Below are positions 15,513-42,927 of a stretch of 64,000 bases of DNA, in pieces. Positions within the stretch are counted from its first letter, which is position 1. Each line of letters opens with the position of its first letter. Source of the stretch: Limnochordia bacterium (GTDB lineage: Bacteria > Bacillota > Limnochordia > DTU080); the NCBI GenBank assembly GCA_050951545.1, contig JBMNJG010000004.1:256001-320000 (forward strand). Direction: 5' to 3'. Position numbers and translations under genes: made by a program. The notes under the pieces were generated by a model. It ran no database searches. It was given only the letters and a program-made list of their open reading frames with translations, and was not told the origin of the DNA.

Positions 15513-17672
15513 TCAGCAGTGCGTTGGTTCTGCAGCTTCAGGCATCATAAGTGCGACGAACAAATCAACTAGCCCAGGGTCGAACTGCACGCCTGCCATC
15601 TCGCGCAGTTCGTCGAGAGCCTCTGTGTGAGGGATTGCTGGCTTATAGCAGCGCCCCTGCGTCATCACATCGTAAGCATCGACGATGGTCAGGATTCTGG
15701 AGCTAAGAGGTATTTCATCGCCCCGCAATCCATTTGGGTAACCGGTACCATCCCACCACTCATGATGATGTAGAATGACGGTGGCTACAGCTGCTACCTT
15801 GGGGATTGATGAGACAATGCGATAGCCAATCTCTGGATGTCGACGCACTTGACTCAGCTCTTCGGGGGTCAGGGGCCCTGCTTTGCTGAGGATGGAATCG
15901 TCAACCCCAATCTTGCCGATATCGTGCAAGGCAGCTGCGAGCATCAGCTCGTCCAACACAGGTGCCGCCAACCCCAGGCTGCGCCCAAGGCGCATGGCTA
16001 GCTTGCCCAAGCGTTCACAGTGCTCTTCGGTCTCACCGCTCTTCTCCTGCAAGGTGCTCTGCAGGGCGGAAAGAATCATGCTGTTCACGCTGCGGCTATC
16101 TAACAGTTTGCGTCGGTACATCCTTTCCTCAGCCAGCCTGCGCACCTGCTCGCAGTCTTGCGTCATACTAGATCTCGTCGCCGATCCGAGGGCGACACTC
16201 AAAGGGAAGGGCGTTGCCCTAATCTCCGCCGCGCCAGCATAGATCGCGGAGCATATCTCTGCGGCCTCTCGTTCTGACGTCTGCGGAAGTAGCAGTACGA
16301 ATTCATCGCCTCCCCAACGGGTCACAATGTCGCCACCGCGGCCGTGCTCTCTAAGTAAGTCGGCGATCGCCTGAAGCTGCTGATCACCCATCGTGTAACC
16401 GAAGGCATCGTTGATGAGTTTCAGCCCATTCAGATCAGCGATAATCATGCTAATGGGCAGCTGTGTCTGGTCGTCGCACAGCCTGGCGACATGTTCCTCG
16501 AAGTAGGCCCGATTGCCTAAGCCCGTGAGCCTGTCCCGATAACTCATCTCCCTGAGTTTCTCGAACGACCGGACTCGTTCCGTAATGTTGAACAAGGTAA
16601 AGGCTACGAAGCCAGGCTCAGAGCGGTAAGCCATGACTTCGTAGTGTCGATCCGAGGGGGCATAGTAGAATTCGAAGCACGCAGGTCGCTCTGTGCACAC
16701 GACTTCAGAGAGCACCGCAGGGAGTGGTGTCTTAGAAAGAGGCGGAAATGCCTCGAGGAGTTCGCTCCCCAACAGTGTTTTGCGTTCTCGGCTAGTGAGC
16801 CGAGTGAATTCGGGGTTGACATCATGAATCACAAAGGTTGGCCCTTGGCCACCGTCGTCTGAAGTCACGGCGCATACCACAAAGCCACCCGTCAGATTGC
16901 TGAAGAGGTTTCTCAGCCGCATCTCTGAGCGTAGAAGACCGTGAAAGACTGTGGAGTAGGGAGCACGCAAAGAACCGTCGACCAGGGCCATGTAGACAAA
17001 CAGGGCGGACACCACTTTGAGTGCATGACCGAGGAAGTTCAAGATACCATACACGTCGACATACAGTGTGAAGGTCATTTCAGAGAAGATGGCCACGACC
17101 ATAGAAGCCGCCAATAGCCTACGGGTACGCGTCGGTAGTTGCTCCTTGTGCGCCTGCATGGTCACCAACGCCGCTAGCAGAAGGCCGCTGATGATGTACT
17201 CACTGGTGATCTTGAATGCGGTCAGGCCCTCACCTTCGACGTAACAGATCGGGAAGATGTCAAAGGCAAAAATGGAGAGAATGAGTGTAAGACAGCCCAT
17301 GCCGTAGACGAGTAAAAGCTTGTACTCTGAAACGCGCCGGCGTACGAAGACAGTTAGACTGGCATGAAGTAGCGTAAGAGCCTCCATGTAGCGCGAGGCT
17401 ATCCAGAGCTGGGTTGCAAGATCCGCACCGTCAGTGGGGAAAACGCCCATCCCCTTGTAGGCTAAGGCATGCAGAATATCAAGGATGCCGACGAAAAGGA
17501 ACCCGACGGAAGCAATAACCAAGACGCGGCTCTCGGTAAACGACCGCGCCTGCCATCCAATGCTAAAAACAGTGATGGCTACTGTCGCACTTCCTAGTTC
17601 AACAAGCGAGTGAAATAGGAGATACGAGTGCCGACTCAATACGTAACCTAGAATTACGGCTATGGCAACCAA
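15513..17672 (-). CDS. Membrane sensor (MASE3-like)-PAS-GGDEF-HD-GYP c-di-GMP enzyme
   Basis: YLLFHSLVE membrane domain; DRLTGLGNR, RWGGDEF; LHDIGK, HHEWWDGTGYP, DAYD all intact; start may be ATG at 17701. Confidence 0.9.
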   Translation of the reverse strand: MVAIAVILGYVLSRHSYLLFHSLVELGSATVAITVFSIGWQARSFTESRVLVIASVGFLFVGILDILHALAYKGMGVFPTDGADLATQLWIASRYMEALTLLHASLTVFVRRRVSEYKLLLVYGMGCLTLILSIFAFDIFPICYVEGEGLTAFKITSEYIISGLLLAALVTMQAHKEQLPTRTRRLLAASMVVAIFSEMTFTLYVDVYGILNFLGHALKVVSALFVYMALVDGSLRAPYSTVFHGLLRSEMRLRNLFSNLTGGFVVCAVTSDDGGQGPTFVIHDVNPEFTRLTSRERKTLLGSELLEAFPPLSKTPLPAVLSEVVCTERPACFEFYYAPSDRHYEVMAYRSEPGFVAFTLFNITERVRSFEKLREMSYRDRLTGLGNRAYFEEHVARLCDDQTQLPISMIIADLNGLKLINDAFGYTMGDQQLQAIADLLREHGRGGDIVTRWGGDEFVLLLPQTSEREAAEICSAIYAGAAEIRATPFPLSVALGSATRSSMTQDCEQVRRLAEERMYRRKLLDSRSVNSMILSALQSTLQEKSGETEEHCERLGKLAMRLGRSLGLAAPVLDELMLAAALHDIGKIGVDDSILSKAGPLTPEELSQVRRHPEIGYRIVSSIPKVAAVATVILHHHEWWDGTGYPNGLRGDEIPLSSRILTIVDAYDVMTQGRCYKPAIPHTEALDELREMAGVQFDPGLVDLFVALMMPEAAEPTHC

Positions 17673-35532: not shown

Positions 35533-36135
35533 ATGAAACTGAAAGAATCAGCCATTCTCCACTTTAGCCGTACTCCTTTGAAGCACCCCATGAGCAAGTA
35601 TCTATTGCAGTTCATATTGGATGCACCTGAGCTTCTCAAGCGGATCACGTTTGTGCGCAATCGGGAGCATCTGCCCAATACCATGCTTGTCTCCGAGTTG
35701 GGAAGCCCTCGCGTCGGTTTTGAGCTCGAACTGGGAGTTCGCCAGCGCGAAGAGGTGAGCATCATCAATGGCGAGTTAGTACGCCAGACGCGCCGTGACC
35801 GTAACCTATGCATTAACGAGCCCATGGAGGCCATCGCACCCTTGCGTGTCTTTCGAGGTCATCTGTATGTCACCTTCTCGTTCTGTGGTCCCATGCCGCC
35901 ATGGTATCTGAATGTGTTGGAGTCGCCTCCGGCCTCACTCAACGACCCGCACCAGCTGACAAGCGTGGATAGAGTGCTACGCGAAATCCTTCGGGATCAG
36001 CTTGATCTGGCAATTCAGGCCATCTTGATCAGGGCGGCCATTGATCAGGCTCTGGCCAATCGAGACCTCGAGTCGTTTCGACAGAATGCCAGGATCTATC
36101 GGGAGGTCATGAATCGCTGCCTTTGGGGCCTGTAG
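35533..36135 (+). CDS. YpiB-like protein with C-terminal IDEAL domain
   Basis: LL.FI......L.RI.FV N-terminus; IDQAL..RD...F C-terminus. Confidence 0.65.
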   Translation: MKLKESAILHFSRTPLKHPMSKYLLQFILDAPELLKRITFVRNREHLPNTMLVSELGSPRVGFELELGVRQREEVSIINGELVRQTRRDRNLCINEPMEAIAPLRVFRGHLYVTFSFCGPMPPWYLNVLESPPASLNDPHQLTSVDRVLREILRDQLDLAIQAILIRAAIDQALANRDLESFRQNARIYREVMNRCLWGL

Positions 36136-36233
36136 GAAACAAGCAGGAGACTTGGGCGCATAGAGGAAGTCTAGACTCAGTCGCCGCGCCCGCTCGAGTA
36201 GCGCGAGCAATATGCAGGGGGAGGCCGTCGCCC

Positions 36234-36803
36234 TTGCCTATCCATCCAACACTTCACAGCTCTACGCATAGCAAGCTGTATGAGTTTGTTCACACAATGG
36301 CAGGCGCAATACTACTTTCAGTGTTGGTCATGGCCTTTGTTGTCAGAGCTTTCACGGTCGACGGACCTTCAATGATGCCTACCCTGCAGTCGGGGGAGCG
36401 GCTTCTGGTAGACAGAATAACCTACCGTCTGCGATCGCCGCAGCGAGGGGAAGTCGTGGTATTTCGCTTCCCGAGCGATCCAAGGCAGTTCTATATAAAA
36501 AGGGTGATTGGCGTCCCGGGCGATAGAATTGTGATCACCCATGGTCGGGTGTATGTCAACGGCGTAATCCTGGACGAGCCGTACACAGACACTTCCGTTC
36601 TTGGAGCCTTTGGGCCTTACACAGTACCTCAAGACCACCTCTTCATGCTAGGTGATAATCGCAACAACTCCGAAGACAGTCGCAATCAACGCGTCGGTTT
36701 CGTTGCCTATCGCATGGTGGTGGGTAGAGCACTGTGGCGCTACTGGCCGCTGACTCGTGCTGGTTCACTGGGAGATCCGAAGCTGGCTCGGGCCTCGTCG
36801 TGA
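36234..36803 (+). CDS. lepB: Signal peptidase I
   Basis: VDGPSMMPTL, YIKRVIG.PGD, MLGDNRNNSEDSR; start uncertain. Confidence 0.93.
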   Translation: MPIHPTLHSSTHSKLYEFVHTMAGAILLSVLVMAFVVRAFTVDGPSMMPTLQSGERLLVDRITYRLRSPQRGEVVVFRFPSDPRQFYIKRVIGVPGDRIVITHGRVYVNGVILDEPYTDTSVLGAFGPYTVPQDHLFMLGDNRNNSEDSRNQRVGFVAYRMVVGRALWRYWPLTRAGSLGDPKLARASS

Positions 36804-37964
36804 TCAGGGGTGAGGCTGATGGTCAGGGAAGGCCAAGTCCGTACCCGGATGGATGAGAGCGGGGTCGTGAATCTGGTTGGCGGCCGCTAAGCGGGGGTAC
36901 TCTAGAGGATCGCCCATAAGCGTTTTGCTGATCTCCCACAGCGTGTCGCCAGGCTTGACGCGATAGGTCATCCCAGAAGAGGCTGGGGCAGGTGACGGTT
37001 CAGCCCTCTCTACTGGTAACGTGACTGGTTGCGGGGCCAAGGCGTCCTGTCCGTCGGCATCCAGCTCATGTTGTTGTGCCTGCTGCAACTCTTCTTGCAG
37101 TTGGTGCAGTTCCTGCTGTCGTTGGGTACCCGAAAACCACAAGCGCGTAAGGCTCCAAGGAAGGCCAGGCCATAGCAGGAGAGTCAACAGCAACGCGATA
37201 ACCAGTCCCCAGACAAGAGGTACTGCAGGACGGCGCTGCTCTCGCTCAGACCCTGTACTTGCTTCTTCGCCAATCAGCTGCCCCTCCTTTTCAGTTTCAG
37301 TCGGCTGTACGGTCGACACAAAGGAGTGCCGTGTCTGGCTTTGCACGTTTCCCCCGAGCTGCCATGAGGAGCCATAGAAGGGGCCACGAATATCCAAGAG
37401 GGTGCTAAAGGGCTCCTTACGTGAGTCCCAGATGGCAAAACCTTCTAGAGGGAGCAGCTTCTTATCGCACCAGTGGTAGAAGCGCGAGACATTCTGCGCT
37501 GTGTCAACGGCAAGCGCGACTTGCCAAGGATGGCTAAAGAAACGATGCTGTGTGAAGCGATCGTAGCTACTAAGCTCAACCCCCTGGTTGGGATGGCTGA
37601 AGAACCAGCCTACGACAAGGGTGTCCGGATAGTCGCGCTGCCAAAGAGTATGCATGTACTCCCAAGAACGCTCATTAAGACTGACAGCGCCTCCGACGAT
37701 CTCGGCAAACCGAGCCTCTAGTGCACCGGAGACCAAAAGGAAGGGGCGTTCGCTTTGAGCAACATACCCGAGCAGAATGCCTCCAGCTTCTTTGTCTGGC
37801 TCGTTCATCAAGTGCCTGCCAATGAGGTCGGCGGCCTCCACAGACAGGAATACCCCTAGAGGTTCATCGTCCGGTGATCCTACGGGTTGTCCCAGATGCG
37901 GTTCGTGTCCGGGGGGGAGCTGACTCATTTCGGGGCCCCGGTGGTACCAGGTGCTGTCGGCCAT
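36804..37964 (-). CDS. MPN/JAB-like domain + transmembrane helix + LysM protein
   Basis: EAGGILLG, VVGWFFSHP.....LSSYD; central TM helix; C-terminal YRVKPGDTLWEIS...NQIHDPALIHPG. Confidence 0.75.
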   Translation of the reverse strand: MADSTWYHRGPEMSQLPPGHEPHLGQPVGSPDDEPLGVFLSVEAADLIGRHLMNEPDKEAGGILLGYVAQSERPFLLVSGALEARFAEIVGGAVSLNERSWEYMHTLWQRDYPDTLVVGWFFSHPNQGVELSSYDRFTQHRFFSHPWQVALAVDTAQNVSRFYHWCDKKLLPLEGFAIWDSRKEPFSTLLDIRGPFYGSSWQLGGNVQSQTRHSFVSTVQPTETEKEGQLIGEEASTGSEREQRRPAVPLVWGLVIALLLTLLLWPGLPWSLTRLWFSGTQRQQELHQLQEELQQAQQHELDADGQDALAPQPVTLPVERAEPSPAPASSGMTYRVKPGDTLWEISKTLMGDPLEYPRLAAANQIHDPALIHPGTDLAFPDHQPHP

Positions 37965-38126
37965 GGTATTTGCTCCTTCACGCCAAGTGTAGCCATTCGT
38001 GTGTGATATGGTCTTCCGCAGGGCCATGTCGTTTCCTCCCGCGAACGGTGAAGCGAATCAAGGAGAAAACGATGTGAGAGCGAATAGCTTCAGGCATGAC
38101 TTGAGGCTGGAACTGGAGGAGAGTAT

Positions 38127-38783
38127 GTGGATTTCACCGCAGCGTCGACTCATTTGCAGCGTATTGCGCGCTCGGGCATCATTGCCGTGATGCGTGGCAT
38201 GCAGGCGGATACGGTTATTCAGGTAGCGCGAGCGCTTAGAGCGGGAGGCGTCGAGGCTCTAGAGGTTACGCTCGATGCACCAGGAGCTCTACGCATGATC
38301 GAAGAGGTTACGGCGACTTTGGGGAACGAGGCTTTGGTTGGCGCAGGCACTGTATTGGATCCAGAGACCGCACGGGCGTCGATCCTGGCGGGAGCAGATT
38401 TCATCTTTACGCCTGCATTGAATGTAGAGGTCATCGCCCTGGCGAATCGTTACGGCAAGGTCGTCATTCCCGGAGTGATGACACCCACGGAGATTGTTCA
38501 GGCTTGTTCGGCTGGTGCCCCCGCCGTAAAGATCTTTCCGGCTGGTGTATTGGGACCCGGCTACCTGCGTCAGGTACGTGGGCCGCTACCACAGGTTCCC
38601 ATGATTCCGACAGGGGGCATCAGCTCCGAAAACGCTGCACAGTTTATTCAGGCAGGGGCTATGGCGGTGGGGGTGGGAGGAGCCTTGGTTGATCTGAAGG
38701 CGATCACCACTGGCCGCTTTGAGGTAATCACAGAGAACGCTAAGGCATTGGTCAGGGTCGTTCAAGAGGCTCGAGCCCGCTGA
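38127..38783 (+). CDS. eda: KDPG/KHG aldolase
   Basis: IIAVMR, LEVT, VGAGTVL, PGVMTPTE, VKIFPA, PTGGI. Confidence 0.93.
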   Translation: MDFTAASTHLQRIARSGIIAVMRGMQADTVIQVARALRAGGVEALEVTLDAPGALRMIEEVTATLGNEALVGAGTVLDPETARASILAGADFIFTPALNVEVIALANRYGKVVIPGVMTPTEIVQACSAGAPAVKIFPAGVLGPGYLRQVRGPLPQVPMIPTGGISSENAAQFIQAGAMAVGVGGALVDLKAITTGRFEVITENAKALVRVVQEARAR

Positions 38784-38885
38784 TGGCGCCAGCCAACGCA
38801 TCGGTGCCTGAGCGATCAACTAGCATGGCCTCTGTGGCAGGCTATCTGTTGGAGACGATAGGCCAATCCGCGCTTTTGGTGGTAA

Positions 38886-39107
38886 TCAGTCGTACTCCCC
38901 AGTTTCCAACATGTCGGGGTCGCTGAACACAAAGCGATAGGTGGCTACGAGTCGGCCATCGACGATGCGAAGCGACTGGACCACTCGGTCAGGCGGGTGC
39001 GGGAGTCGCAGTGTATACTCAAAGAGCTCGTTGTCGTCCTCTGGCAGGCCTTCAAAAGGATCTTCCCTGGATCCAAACCAGTCTTCCATGCGGTTGAACT
39101 TGCTCAA
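38886..39107 (-). CDS. Small acidic hypothetical protein
   Basis: TTG start after GGGAGGTG; 73 aa, D/E-rich. Confidence 0.5.
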   Translation of the reverse strand: MSKFNRMEDWFGSREDPFEGLPEDDNELFEYTLRLPHPPDRVVQSLRIVDGRLVATYRFVFSDPDMLETGEYD

Positions 39108-39240
39108 CTCAAGCACCTCCCGGGTACAGTGCATATGTTAGCAGCCTTTGCCAACAAACACATGGATTATACAGTCACCTCTTGGGGTTGTCAACAACCG
39201 TGGTTCGCGCGACCTGGAAATACGCTTAGCGGGGTGTGCT

Positions 39241-40728
39241 ATGCTTTTGGCGGAAATCGAGCGGTATCTTGTGCTCGGAGGCACCTTCTTCAGCCGGGGT
39301 CTCCTGTTAGCCGCCCGCGATGCATGGGAGAGGGCGCAAGGCTTGCTCGAGCCTTCTTTGCCCGCGGGATATGGCGTACGCATTCACAACGCCTTGGGAT
39401 CTCTATTCCTTGAGTTGCGCTCCTATACGAATGCCCTACGTCATTTCCATTGTGCCAAGGAGTTCTGTGCCATGGCGGGCAACAAGCAGCCCGAATACTG
39501 CCGAGTACTCAACAACCTGGCCCTCAGCTATCTGCAGATGGGGGATTTGGATGCAGCACTGCCACTATCGTTGGAGGCCGTAGAGCTCTTTCCTTCAGGA
39601 GGGCCAATGGAGTTGCACGCCTCCATCAAACTCGTTGCTGGTGTCAGCCAGCTCAATCATGAGGAATGGCAGCGAGCTCGTGAACACCTGGAGTGTGCGC
39701 TTGACATGTTCTCAGAGATGGGGAAAAGCCGCGAGAAGGGGATGTGCCTCAATAATCTGGGTATTATCGCCATGGAACAGGGTGACCTAACCGCTGCACA
39801 GACTCTCCTGGAGTCTGCACTGTCTGTCTTGGAGTTGGTGCATGATGTGGCGCCGCGAGCATATGCCCGCACGGAACTGGGACGCTTGCACTTCAAACAA
39901 GGGGATGTGCCGCAGGCGCTGCATCAAGGCAGTGCTGCTCTGCACACTCTATGGAGGAACATGGGATGGATGGATCGCGCTGAAGTAGCTCGGCTGTGTC
40001 GTCTTTTTGGCTCTATCTTTACCCTGAAAGGCGACCGGACCACAGCTCTAGGGTACCTTCAGCGAGCGACAACCTACTTCGCTCAGAGTCAGATGTGGCG
40101 GGAGTGGGCTCTCGCTACCCATGAACTTGACGGCGTAATTCGGAAGCGAAGTCTACAGCGAGAGCGAATCGTCGTGGAGTGGCAGGACCAAGAGCTGTTG
40201 CGCTACCTCACAACTCTGCTGGGACTCATGGACACCCTGGAGAGTCTGTACCCGGAATCGCTACGCACACTTGAGCTCGTCATTCGCTATGTGCGAGTGT
40301 TGGGCGGTGCCACTGGTGTTGATGAGCCGCGTCTTTCTCAACTGATGACAGCGGCGCGCCTTCGCGATGCTGGGCTGACCAGCGATAGCGACACAGCCGC
40401 TGGCAGGGAGACGCCAGGGGGTGGCCATCCTGCCATGAGTGAACGTGTCTTGGCCATGTTTGGGATGCCGGTTGAAGTGCTACGAGCGGTGCGACACCAT
40501 CACGAAAACTACGATGGCTCGGGCTACCCAGAGGGCCTGGAGGGGGTAGCCATACCACTGGAATCACGCATCTTGAGTTTGGCCGAGAGGTATGTAGGCG
40601 CGGTTGAGTATGAACTGGCGCACGGCCTAGGTTTCCACGAGCGAGCCATGAAGCGCTTGCTCCGCGAACGGGAGCAGTTTGATCCCCGGTTGCTCGATAT
40701 CTTTGAGAAACTGCATCATATCCTCTAA
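39241..40728 (+). CDS. TPR-repeat protein with C-terminal degenerate HD-GYP domain
   Basis: About 6 TPR-like helices (NALG, NNLA, NNLG, TELG, RLFG); HHHENYDGSGYPEGL..IPLESRIL; HD replaced by RD; ORF open from 39148. Confidence 0.85.
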   Translation: MLLAEIERYLVLGGTFFSRGLLLAARDAWERAQGLLEPSLPAGYGVRIHNALGSLFLELRSYTNALRHFHCAKEFCAMAGNKQPEYCRVLNNLALSYLQMGDLDAALPLSLEAVELFPSGGPMELHASIKLVAGVSQLNHEEWQRAREHLECALDMFSEMGKSREKGMCLNNLGIIAMEQGDLTAAQTLLESALSVLELVHDVAPRAYARTELGRLHFKQGDVPQALHQGSAALHTLWRNMGWMDRAEVARLCRLFGSIFTLKGDRTTALGYLQRATTYFAQSQMWREWALATHELDGVIRKRSLQRERIVVEWQDQELLRYLTTLLGLMDTLESLYPESLRTLELVIRYVRVLGGATGVDEPRLSQLMTAARLRDAGLTSDSDTAAGRETPGGGHPAMSERVLAMFGMPVEVLRAVRHHHENYDGSGYPEGLEGVAIPLESRILSLAERYVGAVEYELAHGLGFHERAMKRLLREREQFDPRLLDIFEKLHHIL

Positions 40729-40733
40729 GGGCC

Positions 40734-40762
40734 TTTACAAATGATGGAAGATCTTCCATAAT
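40734..40762 (+). promoter_or_regulatory. Sigma-A-like promoter with embedded 16-bp palindrome for the peptide gene
   Basis: TTTACA-17-CATAAT; ATGGAAGATCTTCCAT at 40744-40759. Confidence 0.6.
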
Positions 40763-40838
40763 AATCAGTGATGGCAAGGCTTTCGTGTGCGACCGGGGGG
40801 CTCGCGAAAGCACGCCGACCACAAGGGAGGGACTGACC

Positions 40839-41147
40839 ATGAAACGATCGATGGTAGTGCTGGCCCTAATGGTGGCGTTGGTGTTCTCCGGCGCTGCTTC
40901 TGCTTGGGCTGGCAATGGTTATTCAGGGGGACAGTCAGCAGGCCATGGGGCCTCTGCCACCAATGGCCCCATGTTGCCCGGTGGCAGTTGGAATTGTGAG
41001 GGACAACCGGGAGATTCAGCGGAGATCGCGACTTGTGGCCCCATGTTGCCCGGTGGCAGCTGGGATCTAGAGGGACAACCGGGGGATTCGGCGGTCATCG
41101 CGACTTGTGGCCCCATGTTGCCCGGTGGCAGTTGGAACATGGAGTAG
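40839..41147 (+). CDS. Secreted 102-aa peptide precursor with three GPMLPGGSW repeats
   Basis: GGGAGG RBS; Sec signal MKRSMVVLALMVALVFSGAASAWA; 24-aa periodic repeats. Confidence 0.85.
   Translation: MKRSMVVLALMVALVFSGAASAWAGNGYSGGQSAGHGASATNGPMLPGGSWNCEGQPGDSAEIATCGPMLPGGSWDLEGQPGDSAVIATCGPMLPGGSWNME
40965..41144 (+). repeat. 72-bp in-frame tandem repeat (2.5 copies)
   Basis: GGCCCCATGTTGCCCGGTGGCAG at 40965, 41037, 41109. Confidence 0.95.
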
Positions 41148-41159
41148 TCGAGCGATAAG

Positions 41160-41861
41160 TCAGCTTCTCTCAGAGCCCGCTTTGGCGGGCTCTGGCGCGT
41201 CTGGCGTCTGCAATCCGGTAGGGCAATAGGCTCGCAGAGCACAGCTTGTGCAGGCAGGGCGGCGCGCCTTGCACACCTGACGGCCGTGATGGATCAAGCG
41301 GTGGTGTGTCTGTGACCACGTGTCCTCGGGCAGGATCTGCATGAGAATGCGTTCTGTCTGTTCTGGAGAGTGGGTCACCGCCAGAGCGAGACGACGGGCT
41401 ACCCGAAAGACATGTGTATCGACGGCCAAGGCGGGGACACAGAAAGCGTTGCTGAGTACGACATTGGCCGTCTTACGCCCGACGCCCGGCAACGCTTGCA
41501 GCGCAGCTCGATCACTGGGTACCTGCCCCTGGTGTTTCTCTACGATCATGCGTGCTGCTTGAACGATGCTACGGGCCTTGTTGCGATACAGCCCTAGTTC
41601 TCTTATCCAAGGCTCCAGCTGTTCGGGTTCAAGTGCAGCTATGGCCTCTGATGTAGCATACTCCTGAAATAGTCGCTTCGTAACCATGTTGACGCGCTTA
41701 TCGGTGCTCTGAGCTGACAGAATAGTGGCGACAAGCAGCTGGAAGGGGTCGTCATAGACCAACTCGCAGCCAACGTGTGGGTACAGCACCTCGAGCGTAG
41801 CCAAGATGGCACCTATCCGGTTTCTTTCGTCTGGCCCAAGTGTGATGGTCTGCTGTGACAA
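41160..41861 (-). CDS. nth: Endonuclease III
   Basis: LLVATILSAQSTD, LPGVGRKTANVV, AVDTHV, C-x6-C-x2-C-x5-C. Confidence 0.96.
   Translation of the reverse strand: MSQQTITLGPDERNRIGAILATLEVLYPHVGCELVYDDPFQLLVATILSAQSTDKRVNMVTKRLFQEYATSEAIAALEPEQLEPWIRELGLYRNKARSIVQAARMIVEKHQGQVPSDRAALQALPGVGRKTANVVLSNAFCVPALAVDTHVFRVARRLALAVTHSPEQTERILMQILPEDTWSQTHHRLIHHGRQVCKARRPACTSCALRAYCPTGLQTPDAPEPAKAGSERS
41171..41194. terminator. Hairpin after the peptide gene (overlaps nth 3' end)
   Basis: CAGAGCCCGC-TTTG-GCGGGCTCTG. Confidence 0.55.
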
Positions 41862-41985
41862 GAAACACCGCCTCCGCTTTCTATCATAAGTCCTTCACAA
41901 GGGTTCCACGTTGACGCCTGGAATACCTATGGGGCGCACTCATGTCAATGCCGCAGCGTAGAGGGATTTTCAGAGGAGCTGCTGT

Positions 41986-42927
41986 ATGCGCGACACGCAA
42001 GTAAAGTCTGGGATTCTGGTCATCGGTAGTCTAAATGCGGATCTCGTGGTGCGTGTAGATCAGCTGCCCCGTCGGGGAGAGACTCTCATGGGGAACAACT
42101 TCGCGCGTTTTTCAGGAGGAAAAGGGGCCAATCAGGCGGTGGCGGCGGCCCGATTGGGTGCTCTCACGTATATGCTCGGACGAGTGGGGACGGATCTCTT
42201 TGGCGAAGAGCAGTTACGCAGCTTGGCGCAGAGCGGTGTAGATACCAGGGCAGTGATCCGTGACGACCAGGGCTCAACCGGAGTAGCTATTATCGCAGTA
42301 GAGGAGGGGACAGGCCACAATAGCATCATCGTAGTGCCAGGGGTCAATGCACACTGTGATGCGTCTGATATCTACACACACCAGAGACTCGTCCGCCAGG
42401 TACGCGTCATGCTGACCCAACTCGAGATACCGCTCTCGGTCGTAGAGGTTGCAGCGGAATTGGCACGTCGGGAAGAGGCGCTCTTCATTTTGGACCCAGC
42501 GCCAGCCACCCCTCTTCCAGCGTCGTTGCTCGCAAAGATCGGAGTGATCACTCCGAATGAACATGAGGCAGAGAGCCTATCCGGGGTCTCAGTGAGAGAC
42601 CAAGCAGGGGCACGAGCGGCAGCAGTCGCCTTGAGGGCTCAGGGCGTGTCCGCAGTCGTGATTACCTTGGGCGACAGAGGCGTCTTTGGTATGAATGACG
42701 AAGAGGAGTTTGTCATCGCGGCTTATGACGTGCAGGCCGTAGATAGCGTGGCTGCTGGCGATGCGTTTAGCGGAGCATTGGCAGTAGCGTTGGCTGAAGG
42801 CTGCTCTTTGCGACAGAGTGCCGAATTCGCCAACGCAGCGGCTGGGCTCAGCGTGACCCGCCACGGAGCCCAGCCGTCAATGCCTACTCGTCAAGAGGTG
42901 GAGGCCTTTGTGCAAGCCAACAGGTGA
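41986..42927 (+). CDS. rbsK: Ribokinase
   Basis: GSLNADL, GGKGANQA, QLEIP, TPNEHE, DSVAAGDAF. Confidence 0.92.
   Translation: MRDTQVKSGILVIGSLNADLVVRVDQLPRRGETLMGNNFARFSGGKGANQAVAAARLGALTYMLGRVGTDLFGEEQLRSLAQSGVDTRAVIRDDQGSTGVAIIAVEEGTGHNSIIVVPGVNAHCDASDIYTHQRLVRQVRVMLTQLEIPLSVVEVAAELARREEALFILDPAPATPLPASLLAKIGVITPNEHEAESLSGVSVRDQAGARAAAVALRAQGVSAVVITLGDRGVFGMNDEEEFVIAAYDVQAVDSVAAGDAFSGALAVALAEGCSLRQSAEFANAAAGLSVTRHGAQPSMPTRQEVEAFVQANR

What the first reader, a model, noticed from the sequence alone, without database searches (positions are those of the whole stretch)
39241..41194. Candidate peptide-signalling pair: TPR-HD-GYP receptor plus a secreted triple-repeat GPMLPGGSW propeptide
Seen: a soluble protein with about 6 Asn-rich TPR units fused to a C-terminal HD-GYP domain. 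About 110 bp later, on the same strand, is a 102-aa ORF with a strong RBS, a Sec signal peptide, its own promoter and a terminal hairpin. Its mature part carries AT(N/C)GPMLPGGSW three times at 24-aa spacing. Established: a TPR receptor gene followed by a small secreted propeptide gene is the layout of RRNPP quorum sensing (Rap-Phr, PlcR-PapR, NprR-NprX, AimR-AimP), where Asn residues of the TPR groove bind the re-imported peptide. Known receptors have an N-terminal HTH or 3-helix effector. Inference: here the TPRs are N-terminal and the output is a cyclic-dinucleotide HD-GYP domain, which would link peptide quorum sensing to c-di-GMP-type signalling, with three signal copies per precursor. 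I do not know of a described system with this architecture.
Basis: partly seen in the sequence, partly recalled or inferred. Interest (0 to 1): 0.88.

Follow-up and report, generated by a model that had tools for sequence, protein, structure and literature searches.

The report
Exported peptide gene beside TPR sensor
An uncultured digester bacterium carries a conserved gene pair, a cytoplasmic repeat-protein sensor with a crippled c-di-GMP-type domain and a tiny exported peptide gene, that looks like an undescribed cell-to-cell peptide signalling system.

Summary
A 495-aa TPR + HD-GYP protein (39241-40728) is followed 110 nt later by a 102-aa ORF (40839-41147). That ORF has an RBS, a Sec-type signal peptide and three GPMLPGGSW cores at 24-aa spacing.

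After dereplication, 26 of 31 receptor clusters from Limnochordia, Symbiobacteriaceae-type and other Bacillota MAGs have a signal-peptide mini-ORF directly downstream. The baseline is 30 of 1706 (1.8%) large ORFs in this genome. Flanking genes differ between lineages, and the peptide core changes clade by clade. RNA-library contigs identical to the window cover the small ORF in 4 of 4 metatranscriptomes laid.

Three corrections:
- The HD-GYP domain of this lineage lacks several metal ligands, so c-di-GMP hydrolysis is doubtful.
- Copy number is labile, 1 to 3.
- The genome encodes Omp85, so the host is probably diderm.

Peptide binding is not shown. Sequence searches do not place the receptor in RRNPP. 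My searches found no description in print. Earlier unchecked notes of this scan describe similar TPR-HD-GYP/peptide cassettes on other DNA.

Verdict: a real, conserved, RRNPP-like but distinct module; the mechanism is inferred.

The parts
39241..40728 (+). Receptor gene: cytoplasmic TPR + HD-GYP-like protein, 495 aa
   Evidence: ORF list; Pfam TPR families and HD_5; AF2 model pLDDT 89.9; full-length orthologues in 16 of 95 genomes of the class
39241..40143 (+). TPR superhelix (aa 1-301): 7 repeats plus capping helix; presumed ligand-binding part
   Evidence: VIA-align: LGN Z 24.8, RapI 22.7, NprR-NprX 22.1. The N-terminal repeats are the least conserved part (0.48 against 0.67 for aa 231-340)
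40180..40716 (+). HD-GYP-like domain (aa 314-492). The HHE..DGxGYP motif is kept; several metal ligands are lost
   Evidence: HD_5 E 1e-17; PDB 5z7c and 4r8z; 4mcw Z 18.5; alignment with the canonical HD-GYP of the same window; family census
40734..40762 (+). Promoter-like hexamers TTTACA-17-CATAAT in the receptor-peptide spacer
   Evidence: Scan; both hexamers invariant in 3 species
40772..40817 (+). Conserved hairpin in the presumed 5' leader of the peptide gene
   Evidence: RNAalifold on 3 species: 17 pairs, 1 compensatory. No Rfam family matches it. Weak evidence
40825..40831 (+). Ribosome-binding site GGGAGGG, 7 nt before the ATG
   Evidence: Sequence; conserved in 3 species
40839..41147 (+). 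Propeptide gene, 102 aa
   Evidence: ORF. Homologues lie downstream of the receptor in relatives. Public pipelines call it as a gene without a name. RNA-library contigs cover it
40839..40910 (+). Sec-type signal peptide (aa 1-24, A-x-A site)
   Evidence: Sequence; passes my own signal-peptide heuristic; no dedicated predictor was run
40965..40991 (+). Core copy 1, GPMLPGGSW (aa 43-51)
41037..41063 (+). Core copy 2 (aa 67-75)
41109..41135 (+). Core copy 3 (aa 91-99), followed by 3 C-terminal residues
41171..41194 (.). G+C-rich hairpin after the peptide gene, inside the 3' end of the convergent nth
   Evidence: Sequence. Not called as a terminator. Weak match to the terminator end of the RsmY model, E 0.39

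Best explanation
This is a two-gene signalling module that works like an RRNPP peptide system but is built from different parts.

Proposed steps:
1. The small gene makes a pre-propeptide that Sec exports, into the periplasm in this probably diderm host. Signal peptidase cuts after the A-x-A site.
2. Extracytoplasmic proteases release one to three copies of a 9-10-residue core of the pattern G-x-hydrophobic-hydrophobic-P-x-G-x-W (here GPMLPGGSW). A subtilase encoded directly upstream in sister genera is a candidate.
3. An Opp/Dpp-type ABC importer takes the peptide up.
4. The peptide binds the concave face of the N-terminal TPR superhelix of the cytoplasmic receptor.
5. The strongly conserved last repeats and linker pass the change to the C-terminal HD-GYP-like domain.
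6. In this lineage that domain has lost several metal ligands. The output is therefore more likely nucleotide binding, or partner binding through the retained GYP motif (for example to GGDEF proteins), than c-di-GMP hydrolysis. Relatives with an intact site may be peptide-gated phosphodiesterases.

Shown: the gene pair, its conservation, the domain make-up, the degenerate site, and presence in RNA libraries. Inferred: export, processing, import, binding and output.
For: Pair conservation:
- 15 of 16 full-length orthologues in the class have such an ORF by eye.
- 17 of 22 genome loci pass a strict heuristic.
- 19 of 19 metagenome loci with downstream room pass it; a 20th, L074, is cut off.
- 26 of 31 clusters pass after dereplication at 90% identity.
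- The baseline is 30 of 1706 in this genome.

Neighbours differ between lineages: KDPG aldolase/nth; subtilase/nth/GGDEF; DHDPS/RNase J; Pyr_redox_2; GroEL. No third gene is constant.

Selection on the core: in three species of the genus the core is identical and the differences lie at third codon positions, or are Leu TTG to CTG, while the spacers diverge. The pattern G-x-h-h-P-x-G-x-W recurs in families f1, f2 (one member) and f3. Other clades carry other cores.

Co-inheritance: motif classes follow receptor clades, with 7 changes against a shuffled mean of 16.4 (0 of 200 shuffles as low; quick tree).

Structure: the TPR domain aligns with peptide-bound Rap, NprR and LGN at Z 21-25. The N-terminal repeats vary most, and the junction to the output domain varies least.

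Ancillary:
- Own promoter-like site and RBS, conserved in sister species.
- RNA-library contigs with 0 differences over the ORF in 4 of 4 runs from 4 studies.
- An Opp/Dpp-type operon exists in the genome.
- Peptidase_S8 lies directly upstream in 3 sister genera, and GGDEF nearby in 2.
- Tandem pheromone copies are known in Phr propeptides (PMC11343458, abstract).
Against: - No binding, processing or import data exist.
- The receptor has no detectable sequence relation to Rap, NprR, PlcR, PrgX or AimR (none listed at E <= 0.01). LGN, a eukaryotic TPR, scores as well as or better than Rap, so the fold match is generic.
- Five of 31 clusters fail the strict signal-peptide test. Three of them have short ORFs with poor hydrophobic cores, and one (L050) has no candidate.
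- The core is invariant across three species whose receptors are only 76% identical. There is therefore no pherotype diversification at that level.
- Omp85 in the genome means a secreted peptide would have to cross an outer membrane twice to act between cells.
- All relatives are kin, so conserved adjacency and clade-wise motifs partly reflect common descent.
- RNA-library contigs cannot show strand or exclude DNA carry-over (tool caution).
- In the genus, an antisense ORF (40919..41242, minus strand) is also open, in a wobble-matched frame. The third-position pattern alone therefore does not fix the coding strand. The sense ORF is preferred because only it recurs in all clades.
Confidence: 0.5

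Rival explanations
1. The two genes are functionally linked, but not by export and re-import. Either the TPR domain binds the unexported precursor in the cytoplasm (a chaperone or an export-stress sensor). Or the peptide acts outside or in the periplasm on another target, and is merely co-regulated with the HD-GYP-like protein.
For: The same conservation data fit any functional link. The diderm envelope makes a private, cell-autonomous circuit plausible. The core is invariant within the genus, unlike diversifying pheromones. Only one Opp/Dpp-type operon was found, and its binding protein is atypical at 884 aa.
Against: A conserved Sec signal, several cores per precursor and acidic flanks fit a released peptide better than a chaperone client. 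The subtilase next door in sister genera suggests extracytoplasmic processing. The TPR fold matches peptide-bound receptors.
Confidence: 0.25
2. The adjacency is inherited gene order without a functional link. The small ORF encodes an unrelated exported Pro/Gly-rich peptide or envelope protein.
For: All loci come from related Bacillota lineages. nth also stays beside the pair in families f1 and f2, which shows that local synteny can persist without an obvious link.
Against: The pair persists where every other neighbour has changed. It spans Limnochordia, Symbiobacteriaceae-type and other MAGs at 31-40% receptor identity. The rate is 26 of 31 against a 1.8% baseline.
Confidence: 0.1
3. The small ORF is a RiPP precursor with repeated core motifs, and the TPR protein is a biosynthetic scaffold.
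For: Repeated cores with an aromatic residue. NCBIfam gives a weak hit to the TPR protein of cyclophane RiPP clusters: HaaA_phane_TPR, 46 bits against a cut-off of 1125.
Against: No radical-SAM, cyclase, protease-exporter or other modifying enzyme is conserved next to the pair in 16 loci examined. RiPP leaders are not normally Sec signal peptides (established knowledge). The NCBIfam hit is far below its cut-off.
Confidence: 0.03
4. The small ORF is not a gene. It would be a chance frame over a 72-nt tandem repeat, or the antisense frame is the real one.
For: An antisense ORF of 107 aa is open here and in the two sister species. The region is a tandem repeat.
Against: The sense ORF, with signal peptide and RBS, recurs in 26 of 31 clusters, including ones without repeats. 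The antisense ORF is not seen at the peptide gene in L005, and in L004 antisense frames overlap only its 5' part. Public pipelines call the sense ORF.
Confidence: 0.02

Closest known systems
RRNPP(A) peptide quorum sensing (Rap-Phr, NprR-NprX, PlcR-PapR, PrgX, AimR-AimP)
   Same: A cytoplasmic TPR-type receptor gene lies next to a small Sec-signal propeptide gene, and the active core sits in the C-terminal part. Tandem cores occur in some Phr propeptides (PMC11343458, abstract). The TPR domain superposes on peptide-bound RapJ, Rap-phi3T and NprR (Z 21-22, rmsd 3.8-4.2 A).
   Different: There is no N-terminal HTH or Rap three-helix bundle; the output domain is C-terminal and HD-GYP-like. No sequence-level match to reference receptors was found. 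The host encodes Omp85. There is a single copy per genome, and the core is invariant within the genus.
HD-GYP c-di-GMP/cGAMP phosphodiesterases (RpfG, PmGH 4mcw, PA4781 4r8z, V-cGAP3 5z7c)
   Same: Pfam HD_5 at E 1e-17. The HHE..DGxGYP motif is retained. The fold matches 4mcw, 9rc0 and 4r8z at Z 18.
   Different: The first His, the His of HD (RD here), the Lys after it and the final Asp pair are replaced. The sensor domain is a TPR superhelix rather than REC, PAS or GAF. About half of the 48 family sequences compared keep the canonical residues.
Inactive HD-GYP proteins used as regulators or c-di-GMP binders (e.g. P. aeruginosa PA2572)
   Same: A degenerate catalytic site with the domain retained. 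The review PMC4933438 (passages read) says only two of the three P. aeruginosa HD-GYP proteins show PDE activity, and lists inactive HD-GYP domains among c-di-GMP-binding motifs.
   Different: PA2572 has a REC input (recalled, not checked), not a TPR, and no paired peptide gene.
LGN/Pins and kinesin light-chain TPR domains
   Same: These are the best structural matches (Z 24.8, 298 residues aligned). They are superhelices that hold extended peptides in the inner groove.
   Different: They are eukaryotic scaffolds and the rmsd is higher (5.4-5.7 A). The likeness is of fold only.
Earlier notes of this scan on TPR-HD-GYP plus small exported peptide cassettes in other phyla (e1-7463159, e1-4126302, e1-7463297)
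   Same: The same idea: a small exported peptide gene beside a TPR + HD-GYP protein. These are unchecked AI notes.
   Different: They concern other genomes, and no sequence likeness to this receptor is indexed. One note reports a c-di-GMP riboswitch on the peptide gene; none is found here.

Membership tests
RRNPP(A) receptor-propeptide systems | Cytoplasmic receptor whose ligand-binding part is a TPR-type superhelix | tested here: met
   Pfam TPR families over aa 48-292. AF2 model with 7 repeats and no signal peptide or TM helix. Z 21-23 to Rap and NprR.
RRNPP(A) receptor-propeptide systems | N-terminal effector: HTH DNA-binding domain, or the Rap three-helix bundle | tested here: not met
   No HTH family at E <= 0.01. 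The TPR helices start at residue 2. The only other domain is the C-terminal HD_5.
RRNPP(A) receptor-propeptide systems | Adjacent small gene (10-100 aa) for a Sec-exported propeptide | tested here: met
   102-aa ORF 110 nt downstream. 26 of 31 dereplicated relatives pass, against a 1.8% baseline. The signal peptide was judged by my own heuristic only.
RRNPP(A) receptor-propeptide systems | Sequence similarity to a reference receptor (criterion of RRNPP_detector, PMC10075063 section 17: BLASTP E <= 1e-5, identity >= 20%, coverage >= 60%) | tested here: not met
   A phmmer search against all PDB chains lists no Rap, NprR, PlcR, PrgX or AimR at E <= 0.01. That exact BLASTP criterion was not run.
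RRNPP(A) receptor-propeptide systems | Mature peptide re-imported by Opp and bound in the TPR groove | not testable with these tools
   An Opp/Dpp-type operon is present: SBP_bac_5, two permeases and an oligo_HPY ATPase. Binding needs experiments.
RRNPP(A) receptor-propeptide systems | Host is a monoderm Bacillota member or one of its mobile elements | tested here: not met
   Relatives are titled Limnochordia or Bacillota. However, the genome has Omp85 at E 1.1e-52 over the full profile, and that family matched only diderm control genomes.
HD-GYP phosphodiesterases (Pfam HD_5) | Domain-level sequence and fold match | tested here: met
   HD_5 at 64.8 bits against a cut-off of 27.2. 4r8z at E 1e-9. 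4mcw at Z 18.5.
HD-GYP phosphodiesterases (Pfam HD_5) | Complete metal-ligand set H...HD...H...HH...D | tested here: not met
   Aligned with the canonical HD-GYP of the same window: first His to Thr, HD to RD, Lys to Leu/Thr, last Asp pair to Glu and Val. Which positions bind metal is taken from recalled knowledge of the PmGH and PA4781 structures.
HD-GYP phosphodiesterases (Pfam HD_5) | HHExxDGxGYP signature | tested here: met
   Present in the window protein. In the 48-sequence census, G and P are kept in 48 of 48; Y in 30 and F in 12.
RiPP precursor peptides | Conserved neighbouring maturase (rSAM, cyclodehydratase, lanthipeptide synthetase and the like) | tested here: not met
   Pfam scan of 43 flanking proteins from 16 loci; no such enzyme recurs.

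The most novel reading that the evidence does not exclude
TPR + HD-GYP proteins with a downstream exported mini-gene form an undescribed family of peptide-pheromone receptors. Their output is the cyclic-dinucleotide network rather than DNA binding or phosphatase action. It would be a peptide-gated phosphodiesterase where the site is intact, and a peptide-gated c-di-GMP or partner-binding switch where it is degenerate, as here. The family operates in outer-membrane-bearing Bacillota (Limnochordia) as well as in Symbiobacteriaceae-type lineages. That would extend export-and-reimport peptide signalling beyond monoderm Firmicutes.
Probability: 0.45. Interest if true: 0.85.

Novelty: new variant of a known kind. 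Interest (0 to 1): 0.72.

Why it matters
Known cytoplasmic peptide-pheromone receptors (RRNPP) act through an N-terminal DNA-binding or Rap-type domain, and are described from monoderm Firmicutes.

If confirmed, a receptor family whose output is an HD-GYP-type domain would link peptide communication directly to c-di-GMP-type lifestyle control. It would also show that the logic works in a diderm lineage. The mix of intact and degenerate catalytic sites in one family would give a natural series for studying how an enzyme domain turns into a signalling pseudo-enzyme.

The hosts are abundant, uncultured Limnochordia of anaerobic digesters, and little in the papers my search found concerns their cell-to-cell signalling.

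The claim is directly testable with a 9-residue synthetic peptide and one soluble protein.

Tried and rejected
- Complex prediction: receptor (alignment A1) with residues 73-102 of the propeptide. Score 0.02 against a mark of 0.32; verdict 'no answer'; controls not run. This is neither support nor evidence against.
- c-di-GMP riboswitch or other Rfam family on the peptide leader (a lead from an earlier scan note): none in 38000-42000 at E <= 1, apart from a weak terminator-like RsmY fragment.
- RNA-library contigs did not cover most of the receptor body (39342-40625) in the four runs laid.
- Subtilase: the sister-genus protease has only a partial, distant match in this genome (E 4.8e-19, aa 342-489, outside the window). 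No orthologous processing protease can be named here.
- RRNPP_detector supplement: 5 mentions of Symbiobacterium. The one row shown is a 'loose' 422-aa TPR protein with a divergent 10-codon ORF, not this architecture. There are no hits for HD-GYP or PF13487. The file was cut when stored, so absence is not proven.
- Earlier-findings look-ups by place and by sequence returned nothing.
- The careful maximum-likelihood tree did not finish, so only the quick tree is reported. L058 sits on a very long branch, probably a frameshifted reading, and was not interpreted.
- The third-codon-position argument for the coding strand was dropped as non-decisive, because the antisense frame shares wobble positions.
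The control was rerun reading sequences from files.
Full report
**What is there**

The window is G000:C4:256001-320000.

- At 39241-40728 (+) lies a 495-aa ORF.
- Pfam finds TPR_12, TPR_1 and related families over aa 48-292 and HD_5 (the HD-GYP family) over aa 330-484 at E 1e-17. It finds no HTH and no other domain.
- An AlphaFold2 model built on 16 orthologues is confident (pLDDT 89.9, pTM 0.86). It is all-helical: 15 helices in aa 2-301 (seven TPR pairs and a cap), a short linker, then the HD-GYP helices.
- 110 nt downstream, on the same strand, is a 102-aa ORF (40839-41147). It is preceded by GGGAGGG and starts with a basic/hydrophobic/A-x-A signal-peptide-like segment.
- That ORF holds GPMLPGGSW three times, 24 residues apart. 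TRF gives a 72-nt period, 2.4 copies and 89% matches.
- A promoter-like TTTACA-17-CATAAT lies in the spacer. Both hexamers are identical in two sister species.
- The hairpin after the ORF is real (41171-41194). It lacks a T-run, was not called as a terminator and lies within the end of the convergent nth gene.

**Is the pair more than chance?**

- Class-wide search: 16 of 95 genomes of the class hold a full-length orthologue of the receptor (families f1 6 of 6 with the own genome, f2 2 of 2, f3 2 of 4, f6 6 of 9). The other matches cover only the HD-GYP part.
- By eye, 15 of these 16 have a same-strand small ORF with a signal-peptide-like start directly downstream.
- A scan of species-representative genomes gave 21 full-length loci, titled Limnochordia, Limnochordales, Bacillota or Symbiobacteriaceae MAGs.
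- A metagenome scan gave 20 more loci.
- With a strict heuristic of my own (basic residue in the first 6 positions, an uncharged 12-residue window with at least 8 strongly hydrophobic residues, 28-110 aa, start -10 to +300 nt after the stop), 30 of 1706 large ORFs of this genome (1.8%) have such a downstream ORF.
- Among receptor loci the figures are 17 of 22 and 19 of 19 with downstream room, with L074 cut off. After single-linkage dereplication at 90% identity it is 26 of 31 clusters.
- The five misses: L043 has an 84-aa ORF whose hydrophobic stretch holds a Pro. L051, L052 and L056 have 30-56-aa ORFs with a shared Pro-rich end but a poor hydrophobic core. L050 has no candidate.

**Independence from context**

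A Pfam scan of 43 flanking proteins from 16 loci shows changing neighbours:

- KDPG aldolase and nth in the window's genus.
- A Peptidase_S8 subtilase directly upstream on the same strand in three sister genera, two of them with a GGDEF gene beyond nth.
- Thymidylate synthase/DHFR, or SLT/GroEL, in other Limnochordia.
- Pyr_redox_2/isochorismatase in family f6.
- Aspartokinase/DHDPS and RNase J in the Symbiobacteriaceae-type loci.

Only the receptor-peptide pair is constant. No maturase or exporter recurs, which argues against a RiPP cluster.

**The peptide**

- Within the genus the core is identical. Two sister species carry two copies in a 75-aa ORF.
- A contig with a 100%-identical receptor fragment carries a 54-aa ORF with one copy (L061; P0152). 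This may be a strain difference or an assembly collapse.
- A further variant replaces the Cys before copy 2 by Ser (P0153). Copy number is therefore labile, and the Cys is not essential.
- In the DNA alignment of the three species, the core differs only at third codon positions or by TTG/CTG, while the spacers diverge strongly. The antisense frame shares wobble positions, so this alone does not prove the strand.
- The sense ORF is preferred because it recurs everywhere with its signal peptide. At the peptide gene no antisense ORF is seen in L005, and in L004 antisense frames overlap only its 5' part.
- Across families f1, f2 (one member) and f3 the C-terminal cores fit one pattern, G-x-hydrophobic-hydrophobic-P-x-G-x-W. 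In f3 it sits at the very C-terminus.
- Family f6 carries Pro-rich cores, once in three tandem copies.
- The Symbiobacteriaceae-type loci carry a short basic-G-x-I-V/I-W-like segment right after the predicted cleavage site.
- On a quick ML tree of 31 receptors, these motif classes need 7 changes against a shuffled mean of 16.4 (0 of 200 shuffles as low). This fits co-inheritance of receptor and peptide. Kin share labels, so it does not prove co-evolution of specificity.

**Expression**

- Public pipelines call the 102-aa ORF, unnamed. The sister-species 75-aa protein is a 'hypothetical protein'.
- In four metatranscriptome runs from four studies, contigs with no differences cover the small ORF: X15 40825-41063, X16 40701-41126, X17 40631-41013, X18 40787-41126.
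- The tool warns that contigs from RNA libraries show neither strand nor level and can contain DNA. This is modest support.

**The output domain**

I aligned the receptor with the canonical HD-GYP protein of the same window (ORF 15513-17672, minus strand).

- The window receptor and its Limnochordia orthologues lack the first His.
- They vary at the HD dyad: RD in f1; AD or AN in f2; HD or HN in f3; HD or QD in f6.
- They replace the Lys after it and have lost the final Asp pair.
- The third His, the HH pair and the DGxGYP motif are largely kept.
- In a census of 47 full-length representatives from a 1.84-billion-protein library plus the window protein (48 sequences), the first His is kept in 24, the HD His in 26, the first of the final Asp pair in 30 and the second in 19.

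The family thus spans apparently competent enzymes and degenerate ones, and the window protein is degenerate. Which positions bind metal is recalled from the PmGH and PA4781 structures, not tested here. The review PMC4933438 (passages read) states that only two of the three P. aeruginosa HD-GYP proteins show PDE activity, and lists inactive HD-GYP domains among c-di-GMP-binding motifs.

**Fold comparison**

- Foldseek ranks designed CTPR and LGN/Pins first, and Rap proteins at ranks 30-50.
- The VIA-align second look gives LGN Z 24.8 (rmsd 5.6 A, 298 aligned), RapI 22.7 (3.8 A, 272), NprR-NprX 22.1 (3.8 A, 290), Rap-phi3T with pheromone 21.7, RapJ-PhrC 21.1 and AimR 18.1.
- For the C-terminal part it gives PmGH 18.5, DvhD 18.3 and PA4781 17.9.

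The TPR part is a peptide-holding superhelix of the same general kind as RRNPP receptors, but the match is not specific. By sequence, no RRNPP receptor appears in the PDB search.

Conservation along the receptor is lowest in repeats 1-5 (0.48) and highest in the last repeats and linker (0.67). That is what a variable ligand site and a conserved transmission module would give. This is an inference.

**Host envelope and import**

- The genome has an Omp85/BamA-family gene (E 1.1e-52, full profile). That family matched only diderm control genomes. The host is probably diderm, and Sec export ends in a periplasm.
- One Opp/Dpp-type operon is present: an SBP_bac_5 protein (atypical, 884 aa), two permeases and an ATPase with the oligopeptide C-terminal domain.

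**Comparison with what is known**

- The module works like RRNPP in layout, and like Phr systems with tandem cores (PMC11343458, abstract).
- It fails three membership criteria: the N-terminal HTH or Rap bundle, sequence similarity to reference receptors, and a monoderm host.
- The main texts of the RRNPP_detector paper and the RRNPPA evolution paper mention neither HD-GYP nor c-di-GMP.
- Full-text searches for RRNPP + HD-GYP, RRNPP + c-di-GMP, HD-GYP + tetratricopeptide + peptide + quorum sensing, HD-GYP + pheromone, and Limnochordia + quorum sensing found no description of such a system.
- Subscription-only papers are outside these searches, and the RRNPP_detector supplement was truncated in storage.
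- Earlier, unchecked notes of this scan describe comparable TPR-HD-GYP/peptide cassettes in other phyla. One lead from them, a c-di-GMP riboswitch on the peptide gene, was tested here and not found.

**Verdict**

The gene pair is real, conserved and very probably a functional unit (my estimate 0.85). That the exported peptide is the ligand of the TPR domain after re-import is the best single mechanism (0.5) but is wholly inferred. I rate it a new variant of a known kind, with interest 0.72.

Noticed in passing
window 15513-17672 (-): A 719-aa multi-domain protein with an N-terminal membrane region, a GGDEF-like middle part and a fully canonical HD-GYP domain. I used it as the in-genome reference for catalytic residues. 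Its other domains were read by eye only.
   Followed up: partly
window 40772-40817 (+): The leader of the peptide gene is more conserved among three species (83% mean identity) than the coding spacers. It folds into a 17-pair hairpin with one compensatory change, and no Rfam family matches it. It may be a regulatory element.
   Followed up: partly
L041:484-2229, L042:447-2261, L047:522-2375: In three sister genera a 580-620-aa Peptidase_S8 subtilase lies directly upstream of the receptor on the same strand, and is a candidate propeptide-processing enzyme. In L041 and L047 a GGDEF protein lies two genes downstream. The window's genus lacks both at this locus.
   Followed up: partly
L061 (metagenome contig) and proteins P0152, P0153: Variants of the same species' peptide gene. 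One has a single core copy (54 aa) beside a 100%-identical receptor fragment. One three-copy form has Cys replaced by Ser before copy 2. These may be repeat-number polymorphism or assembly collapse.
   Followed up: partly
G000:C11:33432-34280: An Omp85/BamA-family gene (E 1.1e-52) in a genome whose relatives are titled Limnochordia/Bacillota. It points to an outer membrane.
   Followed up: partly
window 40919-41242 (-): A 107-aa antisense ORF over the repeats is open here and in the two sister species, in a frame that shares wobble positions with the sense ORF. It is not seen at the peptide gene in more distant relatives.
   Followed up: partly
L055 (record titled Mycobacterium leprae isolate MAG73): This contig's receptor groups with Symbiobacteriaceae-type sequences on the tree. 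The record's organism label looks like a binning or labelling error.
   Followed up: no
window 36123-36803 (+) and 36804-38027 (-): About 2.4 kb upstream lies an ORF that looks like a type I signal peptidase (by eye, not scanned). Next to it is a LysM + JAB/MPN-domain protein (Pfam). A link to the peptide gene is not evident.
   Followed up: no
L059:4-1562: A Symbiobacteriaceae MAG receptor is split into 381-aa and 139-aa frames (a frameshift or an assembly error). It keeps canonical HD and D..D residues and has the downstream peptide ORF.
   Followed up: no
L043:3882-4364, L046:4406-4858: In family f2 a conserved 150-160-aa signal-peptide protein without a Pfam family follows the peptide gene on the same strand. 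It may be a lineage-specific third component.
   Followed up: no
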